Origin: a virus
Taxonomy: Duplodnaviria; Caudoviricetes
Length of the DNA stretch: 56,850 bases
Virus record (IMG/VR): IMGVR_UViG_3300020156_000033
Span: 1-56,850 of that record
Direction: 5' to 3' (one strand)
The notes beneath the pieces are model-generated. The model was not told the origin of the DNA. It worked only from the letters and a program-made list of their open reading frames with translations, and ran no database searches. Positions 1 through 12,539 of this stretch are shown piece after piece. A program made the translations under genes and the position numbers. Position 1 is the stretch's first letter; every line of letters begins with the position of its first letter.

Positions 1-129
1 CAGCGCCGCTGGGGCCGACGACGCCGCGCGCTACCGCGAGGGCGGGCGGGCGTCCTACTACGCCACCGTCCCCGGGACGCTGTTCGAAGACGGGATCACC
101 ACCTACCCCGCCAAGGCCTACGTGGTGGT
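1..129. repeat. Terminal overlap copy 1 (circular assembly)
   Basis: 4-129 identical to 56725-56850; 1-3 CAG vs 56722-56724 CAT; an ORF reads through the join. Confidence 0.95.
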
Positions 130-253
130 GGCGATCCGCCGGAGCGGCTACCACGAGGGCGACGTCATCGACGTCTACCGCAACGGCGCCGATCAGCCGG
201 ACGGCCGCTACACCGTCGGCCCGCGCGGTGGGCTGACCTGGGAGAAGTACTAG
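1..253 (+). CDS. 3' part of hypothetical protein starting at 56441 (about 177 aa across the circular join)
   Basis: Frame from ATG 56441 stays open through the overlap to TAG 251-253; GC-rich third positions. Confidence 0.8.
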   Translation, partial: SAAGADDAARYREGGRASYYATVPGTLFEDGITTYPAKAYVVVAIRRSGYHEGDVIDVYRNGADQPDGRYTVGPRGGLTWEKY

Positions 254-304
254 GACGAAACGCCCTTCGGGGCGTCCGCAGGTAAGGCCTGCGCTGACGA
301 GTCC
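253..304 (+). ncRNA. Hammerhead ribozyme, type II (HH1)
   Basis: GGAC-GAAA-CGCCC(UUCG)GGGCG-UC-CGCAGG(UAAGG)CCUGCG-CUGACGA-GUCC: full core, three Watson-Crick stems, GUC cleavage triplet 274-276. Confidence 0.93.
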
Positions 305-322
305 GCAGACACGGGAGGGACC

Positions 323-649
323 ATGGATAAGTACGTGATCACGGCAGACGACATCATCGGTGCCAGCCAGGACGCGGGGAGCTTCTTCTTCTCCCCCAGC
401 ACCGTGAGGTTCTGGGGCACGCGCGTCATGAGCCAGGTGTTCGGGGTGCCCGGCGGCGCGGTGTTCGTGACGTCGGAGAACCCCCGCAAGGAGCGGGGAG
501 AGCGCGCCTACACCGTGCGGCTGTTCACCTCTGAGGGGGCCAAGATCCGCACGCTGGGACCGCAGTACGGGCACCGTACCCGCGAGCAGGCGCTGCGCGC
601 CGCCGCCGAGTACGCCCGGATGATCCGCGAGGGTGAGGACGTCGCCTGA
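323..649 (+). CDS. Hypothetical phage protein
   Basis: RBS GGGAGG, ATG, coding-type codon bias. Confidence 0.8.
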   Translation: MDKYVITADDIIGASQDAGSFFFSPSTVRFWGTRVMSQVFGVPGGAVFVTSENPRKERGERAYTVRLFTSEGAKIRTLGPQYGHRTREQALRAAAEYARMIREGEDVA

Positions 650-651
650 CC

Positions 652-852
652 ATGGACATGATCACGGCCGAGAACCTGGGTGCGGGCGACCGCATCCGCA
701 CGCGCAAGGGCTCCGGCACCGTGGAGCAGGTCATCCACACCGAGTCCGGCGTCACCGTGTTCACCCGCGAGGGGTGGACGCAGGGCTTCACCTACGGGCA
801 GCGGGTGGACGGCTTCGCCCGCCCGCGCCCCTCCGCCGAACGCGACTTCTAG
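652..852 (+). CDS. Small hypothetical protein
   Basis: Tight packing, codon bias. Confidence 0.7.
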   Translation: MDMITAENLGAGDRIRTRKGSGTVEQVIHTESGVTVFTREGWTQGFTYGQRVDGFARPRPSAERDF

Positions 853-868
853 AAGGGCAGGACCACCC

Positions 869-1228
869 ATGGATTCCAGGACTCCCCGCATCGAGACCGT
901 ATTCGACACCATCGAGTGGCGCCGGGGCGACCTGGCGTACTACTTCCCCGCGTTCTCCGGTCCCGTCCCGTGTCGCGTGATGGGGCGCATCGGGCACCGC
1001 GCCGTTCTGGTGCGGATCACCGCATCGCGGCCCGGCTACAGCAGGAGCGAATACTGCACGGCGGGGCTGAGCGCCGACGGCGTTTCGGGCGAACTGTACG
1101 CACGCAACGCGGTGCACACCGACCGGGGCCGCTACTACGCGGACAACCACCGCCACGACCTGTCCGGACTGCCGGAGTACGTCCGCTTCGGACCCGGCTT
1201 CCACGAGCGCATGACCACCAACTACTGA
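869..1228 (+). CDS. Hypothetical protein
   Basis: ATG 869 after GCAGGA; codon bias. Confidence 0.7.
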   Translation: MDSRTPRIETVFDTIEWRRGDLAYYFPAFSGPVPCRVMGRIGHRAVLVRITASRPGYSRSEYCTAGLSADGVSGELYARNAVHTDRGRYYADNHRHDLSGLPEYVRFGPGFHERMTTNY

Positions 1229-1244
1229 CAGGGGAGCACCACCC

Positions 1245-1568
1245 ATGGCCACCAACAACGAACTCCTGCGCGAAGCGGCCAAGATCACCGGGGCCCTGCG
1301 CAGCCTGGGGATGGTCGATCAGGACACCGAGGTCGGGATCGATTTCGGGTCTTCGACGCAGGGTGTCAGCTACCGCGCGGTCTACGTGCGCACCGGCCTC
1401 GGTGAGGACGGGGCCCGGCACCACCGGGAGTCGTCTGCCACCCCGGAGTGGGTCGCGGGATACAACGGGCGGATCGGGCGGACGCGGGGAGAGGCCCTGC
1501 ACACCCTGGAGACGGCGCGTGCGGCCCTGTGCGCCGCCTCCCGCGCCAGGACCCTGACCGACTCCTAG
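1245..1568 (+). CDS. Hypothetical protein
   Basis: RBS GGGGAG, codon bias. Confidence 0.75.
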   Translation: MATNNELLREAAKITGALRSLGMVDQDTEVGIDFGSSTQGVSYRAVYVRTGLGEDGARHHRESSATPEWVAGYNGRIGRTRGEALHTLETARAALCAASRARTLTDS

Positions 1569-1572
1569 CACA

Positions 1573-1645
1573 CGTCGAAACGCCGGTACAGCGCCGCCCG
1601 GGTGGTGTGCTGGCGTCTGCGGGTCGTTCCCGCACTGATGAGACG
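1573..1645 (+). ncRNA. Hammerhead ribozyme, type II (HH2)
   Basis: CGUC-GAAA-stem III 1581-1590/1606-1615-UC-UGCGGG(UCGUU)CCCGCA-CUGAUGA-GACG; GUC triplet 1615-1617. Confidence 0.93.
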
Positions 1646-1672
1646 ACGCAACCGGAGAAAGAGGTAGGGCAG

Positions 1673-2308
1673 ATGGCATACCCGGACTACACCACCCACT
1701 GCGACGGGACGTTCCTGATCTTCGACACCGCCAAGCACAACGGCCGGGACGTCGACCCGGCGGAGGTCCGCGAGCACGTCGAGGGCTGCGCCACGTGCGC
1801 GGCGGCGGGGGTGGACCCCGATGACGCGGAGTTCGACGCCCGGACCTACAACGGGGACGTCGACGTCCCCTCCGACGACGAGTGCGCGTGCCGACTGGCC
1901 GGTGCGGCGGTGGCGGACCGCGTCCTCGCGGGTGCGGAGGTGCTGAAGCAGGTCTACGGCGCCGACTTCTACACCCGCATCGACACGGACAGGCTGGACG
2001 TCCAGAGCCTCTGCGACTGCGTCCTGGTGCAGCTGGGGAAGGGCCGCTCCGTGTTCGGCATGGACTCCGGCTCCCTTGTCGGCCTGGTGTCCTTCACCGA
2101 GATGGCGGAAGAGATCAAGTGCGCCGCCGTCGATGGGGTGTTCGGCTACGACACCGCCGACGGCAAGGTTGAGACGTGCTGCATGGGCTTCGACGGCGGG
2201 CGCGCAAGCGAAACGGAGTACGACGCCTACAGCGCCGACTGCGCGGAGCTGACGGCGGAGTGGAAGAAGCTGATCACCGACTGGCGCCGGTGGTCCGAAC
2301 TGGTCTGA
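1673..2308 (+). CDS. Hypothetical acidic, Cys-rich protein
   Basis: RBS GAGGTAGGGC then ATG 1673; upstream ORF extension overlaps the ribozyme and was rejected. Confidence 0.75.
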   Translation: MAYPDYTTHCDGTFLIFDTAKHNGRDVDPAEVREHVEGCATCAAAGVDPDDAEFDARTYNGDVDVPSDDECACRLAGAAVADRVLAGAEVLKQVYGADFYTRIDTDRLDVQSLCDCVLVQLGKGRSVFGMDSGSLVGLVSFTEMAEEIKCAAVDGVFGYDTADGKVETCCMGFDGGRASETEYDAYSADCAELTAEWKKLITDWRRWSELV

Positions 2309-2324
2309 GCCGGAAGCGCAGTCC

Positions 2325-2366
2325 GAGCACACCCCCTGCCCCGGAGCATCCGCAGGGGGTGTGCTC
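2325..2366 (+). terminator. Intergenic hairpin (terminator or processing site)
   Basis: Perfect 15-bp inverted repeat GAGCACACCCCCTGC/GCAGGGGGTGTGCTC, no U tail. Confidence 0.55.
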
Positions 2367-2417
2367 CACTGCGCCGCCGGGCGCATAACCACGACGACGG
2401 GCAAGGGAGAGGTGGGC

Positions 2418-2873
2418 ATGCGAGGCGATGTGAACGACCGGATCATAGAGCACGTCGAGCACCGGATGGACAGCCTGCGGCAATGCGGGACGATCGGGGA
2501 GGTCGCCGAGTTCCTGCGGAATGCGCGGATCACGGGGCTCCCCCGGCGGTCGGGTGTGTGCCCGGTCGCCATGTGGATTCGCACCGGTGCACCGGCACTG
2601 CTGGGACTGCACGACGTCGAGGTCGCACCGCCACTGGTCACCATCACGTACAACCTCCTGGAGGCGTGCGGGTGCGGATGCGGTAGCGACGGGGACGAAC
2701 CCGAGCCGTTGCTGCACGAGGTGCAGACGAACGCCGTCATCGACGCGTTCGTTGAGCGCTTCGATGACGACGACGACTTCGCGCCGCAGCTGCGCGCGGA
2801 CGACGACTACATCGGCACGCACGGGTTCTACACCGGGTTCGCCCGGCAGTGGCAGCGGGAGCGGGGACAGTGA
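2418..2873 (+). CDS. Hypothetical protein, paralogue of next gene
   Basis: RBS GGAGAGG; shares VAxF-R--I-G---CP-A motif with 2873-3424. Confidence 0.75.
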   Translation: MRGDVNDRIIEHVEHRMDSLRQCGTIGEVAEFLRNARITGLPRRSGVCPVAMWIRTGAPALLGLHDVEVAPPLVTITYNLLEACGCGCGSDGDEPEPLLHEVQTNAVIDAFVERFDDDDDFAPQLRADDDYIGTHGFYTGFARQWQRERGQ

Positions 2874-3424
2874 TGGATACGAAGACCAAGGAGCGCATCC
2901 GGTTGAAGGCGGACGCCGGGTTGGCGGTACTGCTGGCGTCGGAGGAAGTGCTGAAGGCACCGAGCCCCAGCCTGGGAGTGGCGAAGTTCTTCCGCGCCCG
3001 GGGGATCAGGGGTGAGCGCGACGACGCGCGGACGTGCCCGACCGCGCAGTACTTGCGGGAATGCGTCGAAGACGCGTACGGCATCAACCCCGTGGTGTTC
3101 AACGAGACGATCTCGTTCTGCCGGAACGAGGCGGTGGTCAAGGTCGTGTCCATGCCGACCCCCGCCGCCGTACGGGAGTTCGAGCGGGACATGGGCGCGG
3201 GTGTCTACCCGGACCTGGACACGTCGGTCCGCCGCGATCCCTTTGCGGAAGACAGCGACAACCACTACATCGTGGAACCGACGGAATCCCAAGGGCGGGA
3301 GTACACGGTGTGGCGGGTGAACTGCATCGGGCAGCGCTGGTTCATCGCCTCCTACACCGGTGCCGACACCGCCGTGCGGCTGTGCTCGGTGATGAACCAG
3401 TTCGCCCACACGGAAGTGGTCTAG
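2873..3424 (+). CDS. Hypothetical protein, paralogue of previous gene
   Basis: TGATG coupling; shared motifs. Confidence 0.75.
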   Translation: MDTKTKERIRLKADAGLAVLLASEEVLKAPSPSLGVAKFFRARGIRGERDDARTCPTAQYLRECVEDAYGINPVVFNETISFCRNEAVVKVVSMPTPAAVREFERDMGAGVYPDLDTSVRRDPFAEDSDNHYIVEPTESQGREYTVWRVNCIGQRWFIASYTGADTAVRLCSVMNQFAHTEVV

Positions 3425-3507
3425 ACCATTCGGTGATCTGAGAGCGCGCGGACCTGCGGGCCCGCGCGTTCGACTGCCCATCGAAGGCACGTGGACGGAG
3501 GAAGGGC

Positions 3508-3735
3508 ATGGCCAGTGAGTGGAAGGAACTGCGGCGCGAGGACGACGACCGCCGGTACCTGATCGAGCACAGCGGGACCCCGGAGCTGATCATCAGCGCG
3601 TGGTTCTCCTACGACGACGGGATGCGCACCGCTGCGTGGAACGAGCTGCGTCGGCGGCGGGAGCGCGGGGAGCTGGACGCTCCGCAGCTCAGCGAGCTTG
3701 CCGACATCGACAAGCACAACCTGGGAGAGGGATGA
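3508..3735 (+). CDS. Hypothetical protein
   Basis: RBS GGAGGAAGG, codon bias. Confidence 0.7.
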   Translation: MASEWKELRREDDDRRYLIEHSGTPELIISAWFSYDDGMRTAAWNELRRRRERGELDAPQLSELADIDKHNLGEG

Positions 3736-3737
3736 CG

Positions 3738-3923
3738 ATGCGTGAGGGAGTGGAGATGAGCGTGGGCAGACTGCTCGTGCTGGTGGTGGCGCTGGCCGCC
3801 TTCATCGGGATCGTGTTCGCCAGCGTGGCGGCGGAGGTCGCGGCCGGACCGGAGCCCATCGGCGCCGATGCGGAGGGGACGGTCTACATCGACCCGACCG
3901 ACCGCACCAGCGGAGGTGAGTAG
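3738..3923 (+). CDS. Small membrane protein
   Basis: Hydrophobic LLVLVVALAAFIGIVFASVAA; start uncertain (3732/3738/3756). Confidence 0.65.
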   Translation: MREGVEMSVGRLLVLVVALAAFIGIVFASVAAEVAAGPEPIGADAEGTVYIDPTDRTSGGE

Positions 3924-3925
3924 CT

Positions 3926-4498
3926 GTGCTCGAACTGCTGAAGATGGCCGTGGTCTACGCAGGCCCGTCCGCACTCCTGTGCGGCCTGATCTACTGGCTC
4001 ACCCGGCCCCCGACCCCTGCCACCGGTGATGGGGAGCCCGAGGTGTCCGGCGCACCCGGTGCGCAGACTCCGTCCATCGGCGTGGTCGGTGACCACGTCG
4101 GCGGCTACTACCTCGCCGACGCGGACGGCACCGCCAGGCACCAGGTCAGCCAGGCTGCCCATGCGGGAGACCTGGACCCCCGGGACCGCGCGCTGACTGA
4201 GATGCTGAAGGGTGCGCAGTTCGGCGACGGGGTGTCCATCACCCTGCCGAGCGGGACCGTGGTGGATGGATCGCAGATGCGCCAGCTCCAGCATCAGCGG
4301 ATATGCGAAGAAGCCATGGACCGCAGGGAACTCAGGGAGCAGATGCGGCTGGAGCACAAGGTCTGGAACGACGCGTTCAACAGAAAGATCCAGGCGCTGA
4401 TCAAGTCGGGTGCGAGCGGTGCCGACATCGCCGAGTTCAGCCAGACCGAGATGGCGAAGCGGAAGCAGTACGAGCGGGAACGACGCAACGGAGAGTGA
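3926..4498 (+). CDS. Membrane-anchored hypothetical protein
   Basis: RBS GGAGG; N-terminal TM segment, charged helical C-terminus. Confidence 0.7.
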   Translation: MLELLKMAVVYAGPSALLCGLIYWLTRPPTPATGDGEPEVSGAPGAQTPSIGVVGDHVGGYYLADADGTARHQVSQAAHAGDLDPRDRALTEMLKGAQFGDGVSITLPSGTVVDGSQMRQLQHQRICEEAMDRRELREQMRLEHKVWNDAFNRKIQALIKSGASGADIAEFSQTEMAKRKQYERERRNGE

Positions 4499-4502
4499 CG
4501 GC

Positions 4503-4643
4503 ATGGGCATGGAGCTTCTGATCTTCGGCGCCGGGATGGCCTACGCCTCGCTGTTGTGGGCCTTCCTCAACCTGTGCTCGTGGCTGGCGGGCACCTATGC
4601 TTCCGGCGGAAAGGTCCCCGGACCCGGGGCGCATCGGTCCTGA
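4503..4643 (+). CDS. Small membrane protein (46 aa)
   Basis: MGMELLIFGAGMAYASLLWAFLNL; fills gap between genes. Confidence 0.6.
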   Translation: MGMELLIFGAGMAYASLLWAFLNLCSWLAGTYASGGKVPGPGAHRS

Positions 4644-4723
4644 GGCAGGACGTCGGGCGGCGGTCGCGTGGGGCACCGCCGCCCTTCGTCTCGGTTCAGT
4701 AACGATCGGGAGAGAGGACGGAC

Positions 4724-5107
4724 ATGGACAACAAGGTCACGAAGAAGGCGAAGACCCGGAACGGGATGCGCGTTCGCTACCGCAGCGACGACGGCGTCCT
4801 GTGGGTCGTGCTCGACGCCGAACACGGCGACCCCATCGCGCACGCCTCGCTGAGTATGGCGGGCTACCCCACCGTGGTCTCCCTCAAGGGGCGATGGCGC
4901 CCGTTCCGGGCCGAGACCCTGGAGAAGGGCGCCATCCTGGCGGTGGAGAAGCAGGAGCGCTGGAAGCGGGACGTCCTGGCGGAGGTCGCCGACAACGGGC
5001 GCCGCTACGCCGGTGCGTCGGCGGCCCTGGGCTACAACCGGGGGCCGTACAGCAGCGGTTCCGTGGCCACGGCGAAGTGGCACGGGCAGCGGCGGTCGGC
5101 GCCGTGA
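4724..5107 (+). CDS. Hypothetical protein
   Basis: RBS GAGAGGA, codon bias. Confidence 0.75.
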   Translation: MDNKVTKKAKTRNGMRVRYRSDDGVLWVVLDAEHGDPIAHASLSMAGYPTVVSLKGRWRPFRAETLEKGAILAVEKQERWKRDVLAEVADNGRRYAGASAALGYNRGPYSSGSVATAKWHGQRRSAP

Positions 5108-5226
5108 GCGAGGACACGCTGGACGTCGAAGGCGTCCGGGACTGCCCCGCGTGCAAGGGCAGGGGCACCGCCGCCGACGGTTCGCTGTGCCAGACGTGCG
5201 GCGGAAGCACCGTGCAGGCCAAGTAG
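5104..5226 (+). CDS. 40-aa DnaJ-type zinc-finger microprotein
   Basis: GTGA coupling; CPACKGRG...CQTCGGS. Confidence 0.65.
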   Translation: MSEDTLDVEGVRDCPACKGRGTAADGSLCQTCGGSTVQAK

Positions 5227-5254
5227 CACACCACCATTGGAGAGGTTGAAGGAC

Positions 5255-5710
5255 ATGGGCAGGAAGATCAAGGCGGAGGCGGTACTCCCGGGGATCAGCG
5301 TGTGGCTGAACCTGGACGGCTCCCCCAACGGCCGGTCGCGCTACATCGTGGTCGAGGTCAGCGACCTGGAGCCGGGCACGGACACGGTGGAACTGGGGGT
5401 CATCACCTTCTACCAGTCGGTGACCCCCGACACCACGGTGAAGAACGTGGTCCTGCGGCGGGAGTTCCCCGTGGAGGTGGCCGAGACCAGCTGGAGCAAG
5501 GGCGTGCCGCAGGACTACCGCATCAAGGTCATGGAGCGGTTGGGCCGGGCGGGCGCCCACCTCTACACCTACAACCCGACGGGCAAGCTGAACGGTGAGC
5601 GCCACGTCTTCGAGCACCCGCACCGGGAGGGCGCCGCCAGCGGCGGATGGCTCAGCACCTTCGTGCTGCGCAAGCGGACCGACCACTACATGACGGGGAT
5701 CGTGCGATGA
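5255..5710 (+). CDS. Hypothetical protein
   Basis: RBS GAGAGG/GAAGGA, codon bias. Confidence 0.7.
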   Translation: MGRKIKAEAVLPGISVWLNLDGSPNGRSRYIVVEVSDLEPGTDTVELGVITFYQSVTPDTTVKNVVLRREFPVEVAETSWSKGVPQDYRIKVMERLGRAGAHLYTYNPTGKLNGERHVFEHPHREGAASGGWLSTFVLRKRTDHYMTGIVR

Positions 5711-6012
5711 ACCCGGACGGTGTGGAGTCGGACGACGAGCGCGGGGAGAAGGCGGTCGTGTACGTGGTCGTGCCCGCTTCGAAGGTCCGCATCCGGACCG
5801 AGGCGTACGGCGGTGGGATGAGCGCGCTGAATCAGGCGCAGGCCCTGGCCGGGCGGCTGGCGCAGGACGAACGCGAGGACTACTGCGTCTTCCAGGTGCG
5901 GGAGCACCGCCCGGGGGAGGTCGGCCTGCGGGCCGTCTACCACGGCGTGACCCTGAAGGTGCAGGACACCGAGGGCCTGCCTCTGGCCTACGGCGACGAA
6001 GAGGAGGACTGA
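5707..6012 (+). CDS. Hypothetical protein
   Basis: ATGA coupling, codon bias. Confidence 0.7.
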   Translation: MNPDGVESDDERGEKAVVYVVVPASKVRIRTEAYGGGMSALNQAQALAGRLAQDEREDYCVFQVREHRPGEVGLRAVYHGVTLKVQDTEGLPLAYGDEEED

Positions 6013-8083: not shown

Positions 8084-8201
8084 CTGAAGCTGGTCCACCG
8101 CCCCGGTGCCGACGACCTCTGACCCGGTGGCACGAGCGGGGAGCACACGCCTGCGGGGTGTGCTTCCTGCCCGGATCATCCGGATACGGGAAGGAAGAGA
8201 C

Positions 8202-10034: not shown

Positions 10035-11437
10035 GGGTCGAACGCGAGCGGATGATCCTTCGCCCCTACCAGGTCGAAGATCTGGACATCGTGCTCGCCG
10101 CCGAGGACGGCTCGGCCCTGATCGCCAACACGATGGGCACGGGCAAGACCCTGCTCGCCGTCGAGGCGGTCAGGGCCGTGGCCCCGGCCACCGGACGGGC
10201 GCTGGTCATCGCACCGCTCAACACGCACACCGGCTGGGAGCGCACCATCCGGGCGCAGAGCGGTCCGGACACCCCCATCCACAGACTGACCGGGGGCAAG
10301 GACGGCAAGCTCGCCTGGGACGCTCTGGCGGACGGCTGGGCGGGCTGGTACCTCATCGGCTGGGAGTACTTCCGGCGCTTCGACTGGCGGCCGCCCGGCG
10401 TGTTCGACGTGGCCGTAGCCGACGAGTGCCACCGGGCGCAGAACCGCAAGTCCAAGACGGCCAAGGCCCTGTGGTCGGTGCGCGCCCGGCGCAAGCTGGC
10501 CATGTCGGGAACCCCGGCGGGCAACCGGATCGAGGGACTGTGGTCGGTGCTGCACTGGTTGTGGCCCGAGCAGCACCCCCACTACTGGCCGTGGGTGAAG
10601 AAGTACCTGCGCACCCGGCCCAACCGCTACACCCAGGTGGAGATCGTCGGGGAGAAGGTGCCCGGCCAGGTCATCCGCAGCGTGCCGTGCTACACCCGCC
10701 GCAAGCTGGAGGACGTGGTCGCCGACCTGCCCGAGCGCATCACCTACACGGTGGACACGCGGATGCTCCCGGCCCAGGCCAGGATCTACCGCCAGTTCGA
10801 GGCGCAGTCCCTGGCGTGGTTGAAGGAGCACCCGGTGGCCACGCCCCTGCCCGTGCAGCAGCGGTTGCGCATGCTGCAGACGGCGCTGGGCGTGCCGACG
10901 CTGTTCGAGAAGGAGGAGCTGGACGAGGACGGGTTCCCCAAGACCGAGATCGGGTTCGAGCCGGACTGCAAATCGGCCAAGATCGACGCGATGCTCGACA
11001 TCGTCTCCGACCTGCCCGAGCACACCCCCGTGATGGTCTACACCCACTCAGCCCGCTTCGCCGAGGTCGTGGTCGCACGGCTGAACGACAAGGGCATCGG
11101 CCGGGCCGAACTGTGGACGGGCCGGGTCCCCCAGCACACCCGCATGCGTGTGCTGAAGGAGTTCGGCGGCGGGGTCCGGTTCATCGTGGCCGGGATCGCC
11201 GCCATCGGGGAGGGCGTGGACGGGTTGCAGCGGGTGTGCAACCACGAGATCTGGCTGAGCAAGCACGACAACGGGCTGCTCAACGAGCAGGCCGCCGCCC
11301 GCCTGCTGCGCATGGGGCAGTCCAAGCCCGTGCTGAGCTGGGTCATCCGGGCCGAGGACACCATCGACACGCTGGTCTACCAGCGGCTGGACGAGAACGC
11401 GGAGGCCATGGCCTTCGCACTGGAGAAGGAGGACTGA
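10031..11437 (+). CDS. SNF2-like superfamily 2 helicase
   Basis: LRPYQ, MGTGKT, DECH, MSGTP, GEGVDGLQ, QAAARLLRMGQ. Confidence 0.92.
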   Translation: MRVERERMILRPYQVEDLDIVLAAEDGSALIANTMGTGKTLLAVEAVRAVAPATGRALVIAPLNTHTGWERTIRAQSGPDTPIHRLTGGKDGKLAWDALADGWAGWYLIGWEYFRRFDWRPPGVFDVAVADECHRAQNRKSKTAKALWSVRARRKLAMSGTPAGNRIEGLWSVLHWLWPEQHPHYWPWVKKYLRTRPNRYTQVEIVGEKVPGQVIRSVPCYTRRKLEDVVADLPERITYTVDTRMLPAQARIYRQFEAQSLAWLKEHPVATPLPVQQRLRMLQTALGVPTLFEKEELDEDGFPKTEIGFEPDCKSAKIDAMLDIVSDLPEHTPVMVYTHSARFAEVVVARLNDKGIGRAELWTGRVPQHTRMRVLKEFGGGVRFIVAGIAAIGEGVDGLQRVCNHEIWLSKHDNGLLNEQAAARLLRMGQSKPVLSWVIRAEDTIDTLVYQRLDENAEAMAFALEKED

Positions 11438-12331: not shown

Positions 12332-12539
12332 CGCGGTTGTGCTGTCTGTGACCCGGTTCCACTAGGGTGGAAGCCGCGCCGCAGCCGGGCAGCCAGGTCA
12401 GAACAGGCCGCAGGGTGCAGGGCTGACCGAGTACCGCGTATCGATCTGCGGCCTGTCGCGTGCGAGCGCCGTGAAGCACACGCCCGAGCGGGGTGTGCTT
12501 CGCGGGGTCCGACACGGGACCGTGAACGGGAAGGACACC

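What the first reader, a model, noticed from the sequence alone, without database searches (positions are those of the whole stretch)
1573..1645. Second type II hammerhead ribozyme (HH2) with an extended stem III
Seen: stem II CGUC/GACG, GAAA 1577-1580, a 10-bp stem III with G-U pairs that favour the plus strand, GUC 1615-1617, stem I UGCGGG/CCCGCA, core CUGAUGA 1635-1641. Loop I CGU could pair with ACG 1646-1648. The upstream AGCACAC (1567-1573) can alternatively pair with GUGUGCU (1605-1611) and would disrupt the fold. Inference: a ribosome at TAG 1566-1568 could mask that competitor and couple cleavage to translation.
Basis: partly seen in the sequence, partly recalled or inferred. Interest (0 to 1): 0.88.

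Follow-up and report, generated by a model that had tools for sequence, protein, structure and literature searches.

The report
Ordinary phage type II hammerhead ribozyme
This is a well-formed self-cleaving hammerhead RNA sitting between two genes of a soil phage, an arrangement already known from many phages, and the proposed ribosome-controlled switch is not supported.

Summary
It has the CUGAUGA, GAAA and GUC core, three helices, and a minimum-energy fold equal to the hammerhead fold (z -3.76). Rfam Hammerhead_II scores it 24.0 bits, below the cut-off of 37. A model I built from 30 short-stem-I type II hammerheads of other viral contigs scores it 48.3 bits, E 8.5e-15; the next non-hammerhead hit scores 10.6 bits. 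None of 300 shuffled windows gave any descriptor hit.

It fills the 104-nt non-coding gap between genes 1245-1568 and 1673-2308 of a 68.5% GC soil viral contig. A second hammerhead (253-304) lies 1.3 kb upstream. Clustered hammerheads flanking phage genes were described by Perreault et al. 2011.

The 37-nt stem III lies within the family range of 14-49 nt. The 3-bp pseudoknot equals chance expectation. The competitor helix exists, but it is 10.4 kcal/mol worse than the ribozyme fold. Its heptamer AGCACAC occurs 72 times in the window. A ribosome at the stop codon would also cover the ribozyme's own 5' strand.

Verdict: a new member of a known kind, with the switch idea unsupported. No cleavage data and no readable ortholog were available.

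The parts
1245..1568 (+). Upstream gene (107 aa, no family match). Its stop TAG 1566-1568 lies 4 nt before the ribozyme.
   Evidence: Translation. GC by codon position 0.67/0.57/0.90. No Pfam or PHROG hit.
1567..1573 (+). It is one copy of a genome-wide over-represented motif, fused to the TAG stop.
   Evidence: 72 copies on both strands against 8.13 +/- 2.88 in shuffles. Contexts. The competitor fold costs +10.4 kcal/mol.
1573..1576 (+). Stem II, 5'-proximal strand (CGUC). It pairs with 1642-1645, giving C11.1-G10.1 next to the core.
1577..1580 (+). Core GAAA (G12 A13 A14 A15.1).
1580..1616 (+). Stem III hairpin, 37 nt: 11 bp including A15.1-U16.1, a GxG mismatch, 4 bp, and loop GCCCG. Alone it folds at -27.4 kcal/mol. 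Its 3' arm contains GUGUGCU (1605-1611), the reverse complement of the heptamer.
   Evidence: Length compared with the family.
1617..1618 (+). Predicted cleavage site, after C17 (C1617) and before U1618.
   Evidence: Position relative to the conserved core. Not tested experimentally.
1618..1634 (+). Stem I hairpin, 6 bp (UGCGGG/CCCGCA) with loop UCGUU.
1635..1641 (+). Core CUGAUGA (C3 to A9).
1642..1648 (+). Stem II 3' strand GACG (1642-1645), then ACG (1646-1648). The repeat GACGACG allows a slipped 5-bp stem II (1573-1577 with 1644-1648) that would pair G12.
   Evidence: The slipped register has probability 0.77 against 0.19 for the active register in the nearest-neighbour ensemble (also the MFE). 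The pseudoknot reading equals chance.
1654..1675 (+). Shine-Dalgarno-like GGAGAAAGAGG (1654-1664) and ATG 1673 of the downstream gene, 27 nt after the ribozyme.
   Evidence: The family median gap is 26 nt.
1673..2308 (+). Downstream gene (211 aa, Cys-rich, no family match).
   Evidence: Translation. GC3 0.94. No Pfam or PHROG hit and no GenBank phage match.
253..304 (+). Sister type II hammerhead (HH1). It overlaps the upstream TAG stop by 1 nt and has the same architecture (4-bp stem II, 17-nt stem I hairpin).
   Evidence: RF02276 32.7 bits. R1 61.1 bits. Compensatory C264G + G271C in the relative in run X3.
2326..2367 (+). 15-bp hairpin built on AGCACAC/GUGUGCU, 18 nt after the stop of the downstream gene. 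It has no U tract and may mark the 3' end of the unit that starts at HH2.
   Evidence: The fold of 2300-2400 gives -60.7 kcal/mol, z -6.19. It is not called a terminator by the consensus scan.

Best explanation
HH2 is a genuine type II hammerhead self-cleaving ribozyme. It belongs to the architecture with a 4-bp open stem II, a stem I hairpin of about 17 nt, and no loop I / 3'-tail pseudoknot.

It is transcribed as part of a rightward polycistronic mRNA of a high-GC soil phage. It occupies almost the whole gap between gene 1245-1568 and gene 1673-2308.

Once transcribed, stem III and stem I form locally, the 4-bp stem II closes the junction, and the RNA cleaves after C1617.
- The upstream product ends in a -27 kcal/mol hairpin followed by a single C carrying a 2',3'-cyclic phosphate.
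- The downstream product begins with a 5'-hydroxyl directly inside the stem I hairpin. About 30 nt of leader with the Shine-Dalgarno sequence follows.

Together with HH1 (253-304), cleavage would cut the transcript into a four-gene block and a following unit. This would uncouple their stability and translation.

What is shown: the motif, fold, strand, family fit and gene context. What is inferred: cleavage itself, the nature of the ends, and the effect on mRNA fate.
For: Core and helices are complete at the stated coordinates.

The MFE equals the hammerhead fold, z -3.76, on the plus strand only.

Rfam RF02276 is the best family for this stretch: 24.0 bits, E 0.082 in 3 kb and E 3.6e-4 per genome.

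Model R1 was built from 30 hammerheads of the same architecture from other viral contigs. The window was not used to build it. It gives 48.3 bits, E 8.5e-15. HH1 scores 61.1 bits and the next hit 10.6 bits.

0 of 300 shuffled windows contain any descriptor hit.

The stretch is non-coding. GC3 is 0.63 against 0.90 and 0.94 in the flanking genes.

The context is typical of the family. In 90 other phage type II hammerheads:
- the upstream stop codon ends within -1 to +4 nt of the ribozyme in 50, against 3% of 1800 random positions;
- an SD plus start follows at a median of 26 nt in 74.
HH2 has 4 nt and 27 nt.

Clusters of up to 8 hammerheads per locus occur in those contigs.

From passages read in print:
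- Clustered hammerheads flanking genes in prophages, with processing of long phage transcripts proposed (PMC3088659).
- Three type II hammerheads near phage-like genes shown to cleave in vivo in D. vulgaris (PMC8782182).

The identical sequence over 1420-1933 is present in a second soil sample (run X2).
Against: There are no cleavage data and no RNA run holding the sequence.

No ortholog of HH2 could be read, so there is no covariation evidence for HH2 itself.

The Rfam score is below the curated cut-off (24.0 against 37).

Loop I (UCGUU) lacks most of the pattern common in this architecture (U-A-A...G; the U.G closing pair is in 22 of 30). No tertiary stem I/II contact could be identified. 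The rate at physiological Mg2+ could therefore be low.

The nearest-neighbour ensemble prefers a slipped stem II that pairs the catalytic G12 (0.77 against 0.19).

Predicted SD accessibility hardly changes on cleavage (0.46-0.49 to 0.55), so a translational benefit is not evident.

The closest phage by DNA polymerase (46% identity) has only one hammerhead. It sits beside unrelated genes and has an extra A in the core.
Confidence: 0.8

Rival explanations
1. HH2 is a decaying or very slow hammerhead. The motif is intact on paper. However, it lacks a tertiary stem I/II contact and is prone to a slipped stem II, so it cleaves little in vivo. Its long stem III then acts mainly as an ordinary intercistronic hairpin.
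For: No pseudoknot above chance. Loop I departs from the pattern common in this architecture. The slipped register is favoured 0.77 to 0.19. The Rfam score is sub-threshold. Perreault et al. state that some hammerheads in such clusters may not be functional (PMC3088659, passage read).
Against: All invariant core positions and all three helices are intact. The R1 score is 48.3 bits. The two G.U pairs and the plus-strand-only stability argue for selection at the RNA level. The 30 family members of this architecture also show no pseudoknot, so its absence is normal for them.
Confidence: 0.12
2. One reading: the 5' flank AGCACAC pairs with GUGUGCU in stem III and blocks the ribozyme unless a ribosome terminating at TAG 1566-1568 covers it. 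Cleavage would then be coupled to translation of the upstream gene.
For: Seven perfect Watson-Crick pairs are possible. This is the longest such run among the 92 hammerheads compared; the maximum among the 90 outside the window is 6. The competitor pairs better with 1605-1611 than the native strand does (7 WC pairs against 4 WC, 2 GU and 1 mismatch). AGCACAC...GUGUGCU pairs form hairpins at four other places in the window.
Against: The competitor fold is 10.4 kcal/mol worse, and its pair probabilities are 0.0 at five decimals. The native hairpin is the MFE at every transcript length tested from 1611 to 1645. 8% of shuffled flanks reach a run of 7. The heptamer is 9-12 times over-represented genome-wide and ends six other ORFs as TAGCACAC. 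There is no family-wide flank complementarity. A terminating ribosome would also occlude stem II and G12 (recalled footprint knowledge).
Confidence: 0.04
3. The resemblance is incidental. The stretch is really one of the phage's AGCACAC/GUGUGCU motif hairpins, a DNA- or RNA-level protein site or terminator, and it matches the hammerhead consensus by chance.
For: The motif pair brackets the 5' half of HH2. Similar pairs occur at 2326/2365, 8142/8164, 11133/11154 and 12475/12499.
Against: A chance match is excluded for practical purposes: 0 of 300 shuffles and E 8.5e-15 with R1. A second hammerhead of the same architecture lies 1.3 kb away on the same strand.
Confidence: 0.02

Closest known systems
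Type II hammerhead ribozymes of bacteria and phages (Rfam RF02276; Perreault et al. 2011, PMC3088659, abstract and passages read)
   Same: Permuted topology with stem II open and stems I and III capped. Identical catalytic core. Intergenic position on the coding strand among small phage genes of unknown function. More than one copy flanks a short block of genes.
   Different: HH2 lacks the loop I / 3'-tail pseudoknot (4 bp or more) of the Rfam consensus, and it has a shorter stem I (17 against about 22 nt). That, together with the 37-nt stem III, keeps it under the Rfam cut-off. No activity data exist.
Short-stem-I, 4-bp-stem-II type II hammerheads of IMG/VR viral contigs. This grouping is mine (30 sequences, alignment A1). 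I do not know whether it is named in print.
   Same: Same dimensions (stem II 4 bp, stem I hairpin 16-19 nt). No pseudoknot enrichment. The stop codon abuts the 5' end and the SD follows about 26 nt after the 3' end. Stem III varies in length from 16 to 49 nt within this group. HH2 scores 48.3 bits against the model built from them.
   Different: Loop I of HH2 is UCGUU, not the common U-A-A...G pattern. Stem III (37 nt) is in the upper tail.
The three type II hammerheads of Desulfovibrio vulgaris, shown to be active in vivo and in vitro (cyPhyRNA-seq, PMC8782182, abstract and passages read)
   Same: Type II hammerheads next to hypothetical and phage-like genes, two of them close together. They show that such predicted motifs do cleave in cells.
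   Different: Different host phylum and sequences. I did not compare the sequences.
Engineered ribozyme insulators such as RiboJ (recalled, no call)
   Same: A hammerhead placed before an SD cuts off the upstream RNA and leaves a defined 5'-OH leader that starts with a hairpin.
   Different: Those are synthetic type III constructs derived from a satellite RNA. The analogy speaks only to the likely consequence of cleavage.

Membership tests
Hammerhead ribozyme (any type) | Conserved core: C3-U4-G5-A6-N7-G8-A9, G12-A13-A14, the A15.1-U16.1 pair, and H17 (not G) at the cleavage site. | tested here: met
   CUGAUGA 1635-1641, GAAA 1577-1580, A1580-U1616, C1617.
Hammerhead ribozyme (any type) | Three helices radiating from the core, on the transcribed strand. 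| tested here: met
   Stems of 4, 11(+4) and 6 bp. MFE equals this fold, z -3.76. Minus strand z -0.25. The flanking genes are on the same strand.
Hammerhead ribozyme (any type) | Site-specific self-cleavage giving 2',3'-cyclic phosphate and 5'-OH ends. | not testable with these tools
   No RNA holder was listed among the public runs. A cleavage assay is needed.
Hammerhead ribozyme (any type) | [quoted passage not shown] | tested here: inconclusive
   Only a 3-bp loop I / tail complementarity, equal to chance (3 against 3.2 shuffled). The 30 members of the same architecture also show none (1.87 against 1.97). Non-Watson-Crick contacts cannot be scored here.
Type II hammerhead (Rfam RF02276) | Permutation: stem II open, stems I and III closed by loops. 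| tested here: met
   Order 5'-stem II strand, GAAA, stem III hairpin, GUC, stem I hairpin, CUGAUGA, stem II strand-3'.
Type II hammerhead (Rfam RF02276) | Score at or above the curated gathering cut-off (37 bits). | tested here: not met
   24.0 bits. HH1 also falls short at 32.7 bits. The alignment shows the loss comes from the 22-nt insertion in stem III, the shorter stem I loop, and a 3' tail that does not match the pseudoknot consensus.
Type II hammerhead (Rfam RF02276) | Pseudoknot of 4 bp or more between loop I and the nucleotides just 3' of stem II. Perreault et al. report it for a majority, not all. | tested here: not met
   The longest run is 3 bp. The long-stem-I members do show enrichment (3.95 against 3.0, n = 60), so the test can detect it.
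Short-stem-I type II hammerheads of viral contigs (my grouping, model R1) | A significant score against a covariance model built without the window. | tested here: met
   48.3 bits, E 8.5e-15, full model length 1-58. The best non-hammerhead hit in the window is 10.6 bits. E-values are rough because calibration was shortened.
Short-stem-I type II hammerheads of viral contigs (my grouping, model R1) | Conservation or covariation of this particular copy in orthologous positions of related phages. | tested here: inconclusive
   X2 is identical. Pattern and protein scans of viral, metagenome and genome collections found no ortholog.

The most novel reading that the evidence does not exclude
The position of phage type II hammerheads may be functional rather than mere genome compaction.

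In 50 of 90 family members, and in both copies here, the upstream stop codon ends within -1 to +4 nt of the ribozyme's first paired nucleotide. A terminating or queued ribosome must then unwind stem II and the GAAA strand. Self-cleavage could happen only when the upstream cistron is not being translated, or after ribosome release. mRNA scission, and the fate of the downstream cistron, would thereby be coupled to translation of the upstream gene.

In HH2 the genome-wide AGCACAC heptamer at the stop codon, complementary to stem III, would be an added layer, possibly read by a phage factor.

No call here tests it.
Probability: 0.07. Interest if true: 0.6.

Novelty: new member of a known kind. Interest (0 to 1): 0.24.

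Why it matters
As it stands, this adds one more high-GC, probably actinobacterial, soil-phage example to a ribozyme class catalogued since 2011. The biological role of that class is still only proposed: processing of polycistronic phage mRNAs.

Its practical value is modest. The pair HH1/HH2 brackets a defined four-gene block and would be a convenient test case for what such cleavage does to mRNA stability and translation.

Two by-products may be of wider interest. First, stop codons abut these ribozymes far more often than random positions do. Second, this phage carries a heptamer at 9-12 times its expected frequency, placed in a frame-constrained way inside genes and at gene ends. Neither has been followed up here.

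Tried and rejected
Orthologs of HH2. None was found that could be read.
- Protein-anchored scans with the two flanking proteins found one weak partial hit (L004, 29 residues, no hammerhead by RF02276) in viral contigs. They found nothing in genome or metagenome contigs and nothing in GenBank phages.
- DNA similarity of 1-6000 and 1-4000 to GenBank phages gave no match.
- A pattern fixing HH2's stem II and core with free stems I and III gave 0 viral hits and 3 metagenome hits. All three lie in apparent coding sequence and lack the helices, so I treat them as chance.
- The HH1 pattern, with N at the two positions that vary in X3, gave 0 hits in genome and viral contigs.

Expression. No RNA holder was listed. 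This says nothing about expression.

Relatives by DNA polymerase. 80 loci were kept. I scanned 5 records with RF02276 and 5 with R1. The two sets share 4 records, so 6 different records were covered. Only the closest (G001) has a hammerhead, and it has an extra A after A6. According to Perreault et al. (passage read), that change lowers activity. Its neighbouring genes are unrelated to those here.

Ideas rejected.
- Circular or spliced product from HH1 plus HH2: the stem II strands of the two ribozymes (GGAC/GUCC and CGUC/GACG) are not cross-compatible (read).
- Cleavage unmasking the SD: accessibility changes only from 0.46-0.49 to 0.55.
- HH2 lying inside an N-terminal extension of the downstream gene (ORF 1448-2308): rejected by GC3 of 0.63.

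Caveats on my own counts.
- In one search the script assigned HH2 a stop distance of 15, because it picked a longer ORF in another frame. The distance of 4 nt is from the gene 1245-1568, read by hand.
- The 90 family hammerheads were chosen by a descriptor that demands the helices. The 97.8% pairing is therefore by construction and only shows that different sequences fill the same helices.
- 40 of the 90 came from a pattern that forces a stem III of 25 nt or more. Length comparisons use the other 50.
- The gene map used is a crude GC3-based call and misses some genes.

Supplements of the papers were not opened. Perreault et al.'s Figures S4-S7 and Dataset S1 may already describe the pseudoknot-less architecture and long stem III variants.

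Full report
**What the window is.** The window is a whole IMG/VR virus record of 56,850 bp, with no terminal repeats and a CheckV completeness of about 50%. Its GC content is 68.5%. It encodes a family A DNA polymerase and a primase/DUF3987 protein. The nearest GenBank polymerases are from Curtobacterium and Arthrobacter phages, at 34-36% identity. The sequence is held by soil metagenome runs. A crude GC3-based gene map puts the genes of roughly the first 21 kb on the + strand and most of the rest on the - strand.

**The observation.**
- Stem II is CGUC 1573-1576 with GACG 1642-1645.
- GAAA lies at 1577-1580.
- Stem III is 1581-1590 with 1606-1615, including the wobble pairs G1585.U1611 and U1587.G1609.
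- The helix continues through A1580-U1616 at the base, and distally through a GxG mismatch into four more pairs and a GCCCG loop. That makes 37 nt from A15.1 to U16.1.
- GUC lies at 1615-1617.
- Stem I is UGCGGG/CCCGCA with loop UCGUU.
- CUGAUGA lies at 1635-1641.

The 73-nt plus-strand RNA has this three-way junction as its minimum-energy structure: -40.5 kcal/mol, z -3.76, and none of 200 shuffles as stable. The minus strand is unremarkable (z -0.25).

**Is it more than chance?** A simple type II descriptor finds exactly two hits in the window, 253-304 and 1573-1645, both on the + strand. It finds none in 300 dinucleotide-preserving shuffles searched on both strands. Relaxed-core type II scans and strict-core type I and III scans add nothing.

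Rfam finds nothing at gathering thresholds. With E-value reporting, Hammerhead_II (RF02276) is the best family for both places. HH1 scores 32.7 bits and HH2 24.0 bits, against a cut-off of 37. The printed alignment shows where HH2 loses score: a 22-nt insertion in stem III, a shorter stem I loop, and a 3' tail unlike the consensus.

**Placing it in its family.** A pattern scan of IMG/VR for type II hammerheads that share only the base of stem III returned 48 loci. My descriptor found 90 distinct type II hammerheads in them, up to eight per locus. They fall into two architectures.
- 60 have a stem I hairpin of 20 nt or more and mostly a 2-3 bp stem II. They show loop I / tail complementarity above shuffles (3.95 against 3.0). 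This is the pseudoknotted form described by Perreault et al. 2011 (PMC3088659, passages read).
- 30 have a 16-19 nt stem I hairpin and mostly a 4-bp stem II. They show no such complementarity (1.87 against 1.97).

HH1 and HH2 have the second architecture. I aligned those 30 (A1) and built a covariance model from them, without any window sequence (R1). I then searched the window with filters off. HH1 scores 61.1 bits (E 2e-19) and HH2 48.3 bits (E 8.5e-15). The next hit scores 10.6 bits. E-values from this model are rough, but the bit-score gap is not.

The pairing statistics of A1 are strong: 97.8% paired, and 16 of 18 pairs change on both sides. They are partly circular, because the members were picked by a descriptor that requires the helices.

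**Stem III length.** 50 family members were found as bystanders and are therefore unbiased for length. Their stem III has a median of 20 nt and ranges from 14 to 37 nt, with four at 37. The pattern-selected members reach 49 nt. HH2's 37 nt is in the upper tail but is not a new feature.

**Context.** The 104 nt between TAG 1566-1568 and ATG 1673 are non-coding. GC3 there is 0.63, against 0.90 and 0.94 in the flanking genes, even though the downstream frame is formally open from 1448. The ribozyme starts 4 nt after the stop. The Shine-Dalgarno-like GGAGAAAGAGG and the ATG follow, with a gap of 27 nt from the ribozyme's end to the ATG.

This is the family norm.
- In 50 of 90 members the stop of an upstream ORF of 40 codons or more ends within -1 to +4 nt of the ribozyme. 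The figure for 1800 random positions in the same loci is 3%.
- 74 of 90 have an SD plus start at a median of 26 nt downstream, interquartile range 20-32.
- HH1 overlaps its stop by one nucleotide and is followed by a start after 18 nt.

Neither flanking protein has a Pfam or PHROG family. The gene after HH1 is a DUF7447 protein. No sigma-70-like promoter or U-tract terminator is called in 1-4000 on the + strand. A 15-bp hairpin at 2326-2367 follows the downstream gene.

**The pseudoknot suggestion.** CGU 1625-1627 can pair with ACG 1646-1648. A 3-bp run is what shuffled tails give (mean 3.2), and hammerheads of this architecture show no enrichment. The same ACG also takes part in a slipped stem II, CGUCG 1573-1577 with CGACG 1644-1648. 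The nearest-neighbour ensemble prefers this register (0.77 against 0.19), and it would pair the catalytic G12. Such models ignore the tertiary core, so this is a caveat and not a finding.

**The competitor and the switch.** AGCACAC 1567-1573 is perfectly complementary to 1605-1611. However:
- Forcing that helix costs 10.4 kcal/mol relative to the hammerhead fold.
- Its pairs have probability 0.0 at five decimals.
- The native stem III is the MFE at every transcript end tested from 1611 to 1645.
- Shuffling the 16-nt flank gives a run of 7 or more in 8% of trials.
- The 90 family members show no excess flank complementarity, 3.12 against 3.12.

More telling, AGCACAC is the most over-represented heptamer of the window. 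It has 72 copies on both strands. Dinucleotide shuffles give 8.1 +/- 2.9 with a maximum of 16. The mononucleotide expectation is 6.1, z 26.7, and the next unrelated word has z 13.8. At six other places it follows the T of a TAG (starts 5225, 13284, 14618, 19610, 21266, 53880), none of which has a hammerhead. Five of these coincide with ORF ends listed. It also forms AGCACAC-N-GUGUGCU hairpins at four other places.

Its presence next to the stop codon therefore needs no ribozyme-specific reason. The native 5' arm of the distal stem III (GGUACAG) looks like a degenerate copy of the motif, in which two of three differences keep pairing through wobble (read). The extension may derive from such a motif hairpin. 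That is inference.

Finally, from recalled toeprinting knowledge, a ribosome with the stop codon in its A site extends about 12 nt beyond it. It would cover stem II and G12/A13 as well as the competitor. It cannot unmask the ribozyme while masking the competitor.

**Related sequences.**
- Run X2, from a second soil sample and study, carries an identical 1420-1933.
- Run X3 carries a relative at about 89% identity. In HH1 it shows C264G together with G271C, a compensatory exchange in stem III (positions checked).
- X3 also has a 347-nt insertion bounded by a second copy of 268-304. This suggests an extra cassette flanked by hammerhead sequence.
- All other attempts to find an HH2 ortholog failed.
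- The closest phage by polymerase (46%) has one type II hammerhead, directly after a stop codon, beside unrelated genes. Its core reads CUGAAUGA.

**Mechanism.** The best-supported reading is the published one for such clusters: self-cleavage of a long phage transcript into shorter units (PMC3088659; review PMC6765202, passage read). In vivo activity has been demonstrated for comparable bacterial type II hammerheads (PMC8782182, passages read).

For HH2 the cut after C1617 would leave the upstream RNA ending in a -27.4 kcal/mol hairpin plus one nucleotide. The downstream RNA would start with a 5'-OH inside the stem I hairpin. Both ends should resist end-dependent decay, which is inference from general knowledge. 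Predicted SD accessibility hardly changes, so I do not propose translational activation by unmasking.

**Verdict.** This is a real, well-formed type II hammerhead motif in a textbook phage context. It is a new member of a known kind. Cleavage is unproven, and the translation-coupled switch is unsupported.

Noticed in passing
window, 72 sites on both strands (for example 1567, 2326, 5225, 13284, 19610, 21266): AGCACAC/GTGTGCT is the most over-represented heptamer of the window: 72 copies against 8.1 +/- 2.9 in shuffles, z 26.7 by base composition. Inside called genes it sits almost only in one frame: 13 of 15 sense copies and 28 of 36 antisense copies. The antisense frame forces a rare xGT codon, which suggests selection at the nucleotide level. 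It is also enriched 5-7 fold in the two closest relatives (L005 10 against 1.5; L061 12 against 2.3)..
   Followed up: partly
window 1566, 5224, 13283, 14617, 19609, 21265, 53879: Seven places read TAGCACAC, with a TAG fused to the heptamer. Six coincide with ORF ends; I did not check the seventh (53879). Two (13283, 19609) continue with the same ACCGACACGGGAAGGA junction, and a third (21265) with the related CACCACGGGAAGGA. In two of the three an ATG follows within the text shown.
   Followed up: no
window 2326-2365, 8142-8164, 11133-11154, 12475-12499: Four hairpins are built on AGCACAC-N(8-26)-GTGTGCT. The first has a 15-bp stem 18 nt after the stop of gene 1673-2308 (-60.7 kcal/mol for 2300-2400, z -6.19). 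Counting the pair around HH2, there are five such inverted pairs within 45 nt. My hand estimate, not a call, is about one expected from the motif density..
   Followed up: partly
window 253-304: First type II hammerhead (HH1): RF02276 32.7 bits, R1 61.1 bits. It overlaps the upstream TAG by 1 nt. The DUF7447 gene starts 18 nt after it. The relative in run X3 shows a compensatory C264G + G271C in stem III..
   Followed up: partly
window 268-304, as seen in contig 11 of run X3: The relative in X3 has 347 extra letters bounded by a second copy of the 3' part of HH1 (268-304). This looks like an added small cassette flanked by hammerhead sequence (table 5). The inserted letters could not be read.
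   Followed up: no
L085:1501-1567 (-), same place as L138: The closest phage by polymerase (46% identity) has one type II hammerhead directly after a stop codon. Its core reads CUGAAUGA, with an extra A after A6. Perreault et al. report low activity for such an insertion..
   Followed up: partly
loci L087-L134 (IMG/VR viral contigs): In 90 distinct type II hammerheads, the stop codon of the upstream ORF ends within -1 to +4 nt of the ribozyme in 50, against 3% of random positions. An SD plus start follows at a median of 26 nt. The words 'stop codon', 'ribosome' and 'translation' do not occur in the main text of Perreault et al. 2011..
   Followed up: partly
L008 (IMG/VR contig related by polymerase, 33% identity): Another phage of this polymerase group has its own hugely over-represented heptamer, ACCACAG/CTGTGGT: 35 copies against 2.2 expected in 21.7 kb. 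L006 is enriched for CCACACC and TCCACAC. Lineage-specific CACA-containing words may be a shared trait.
   Followed up: no
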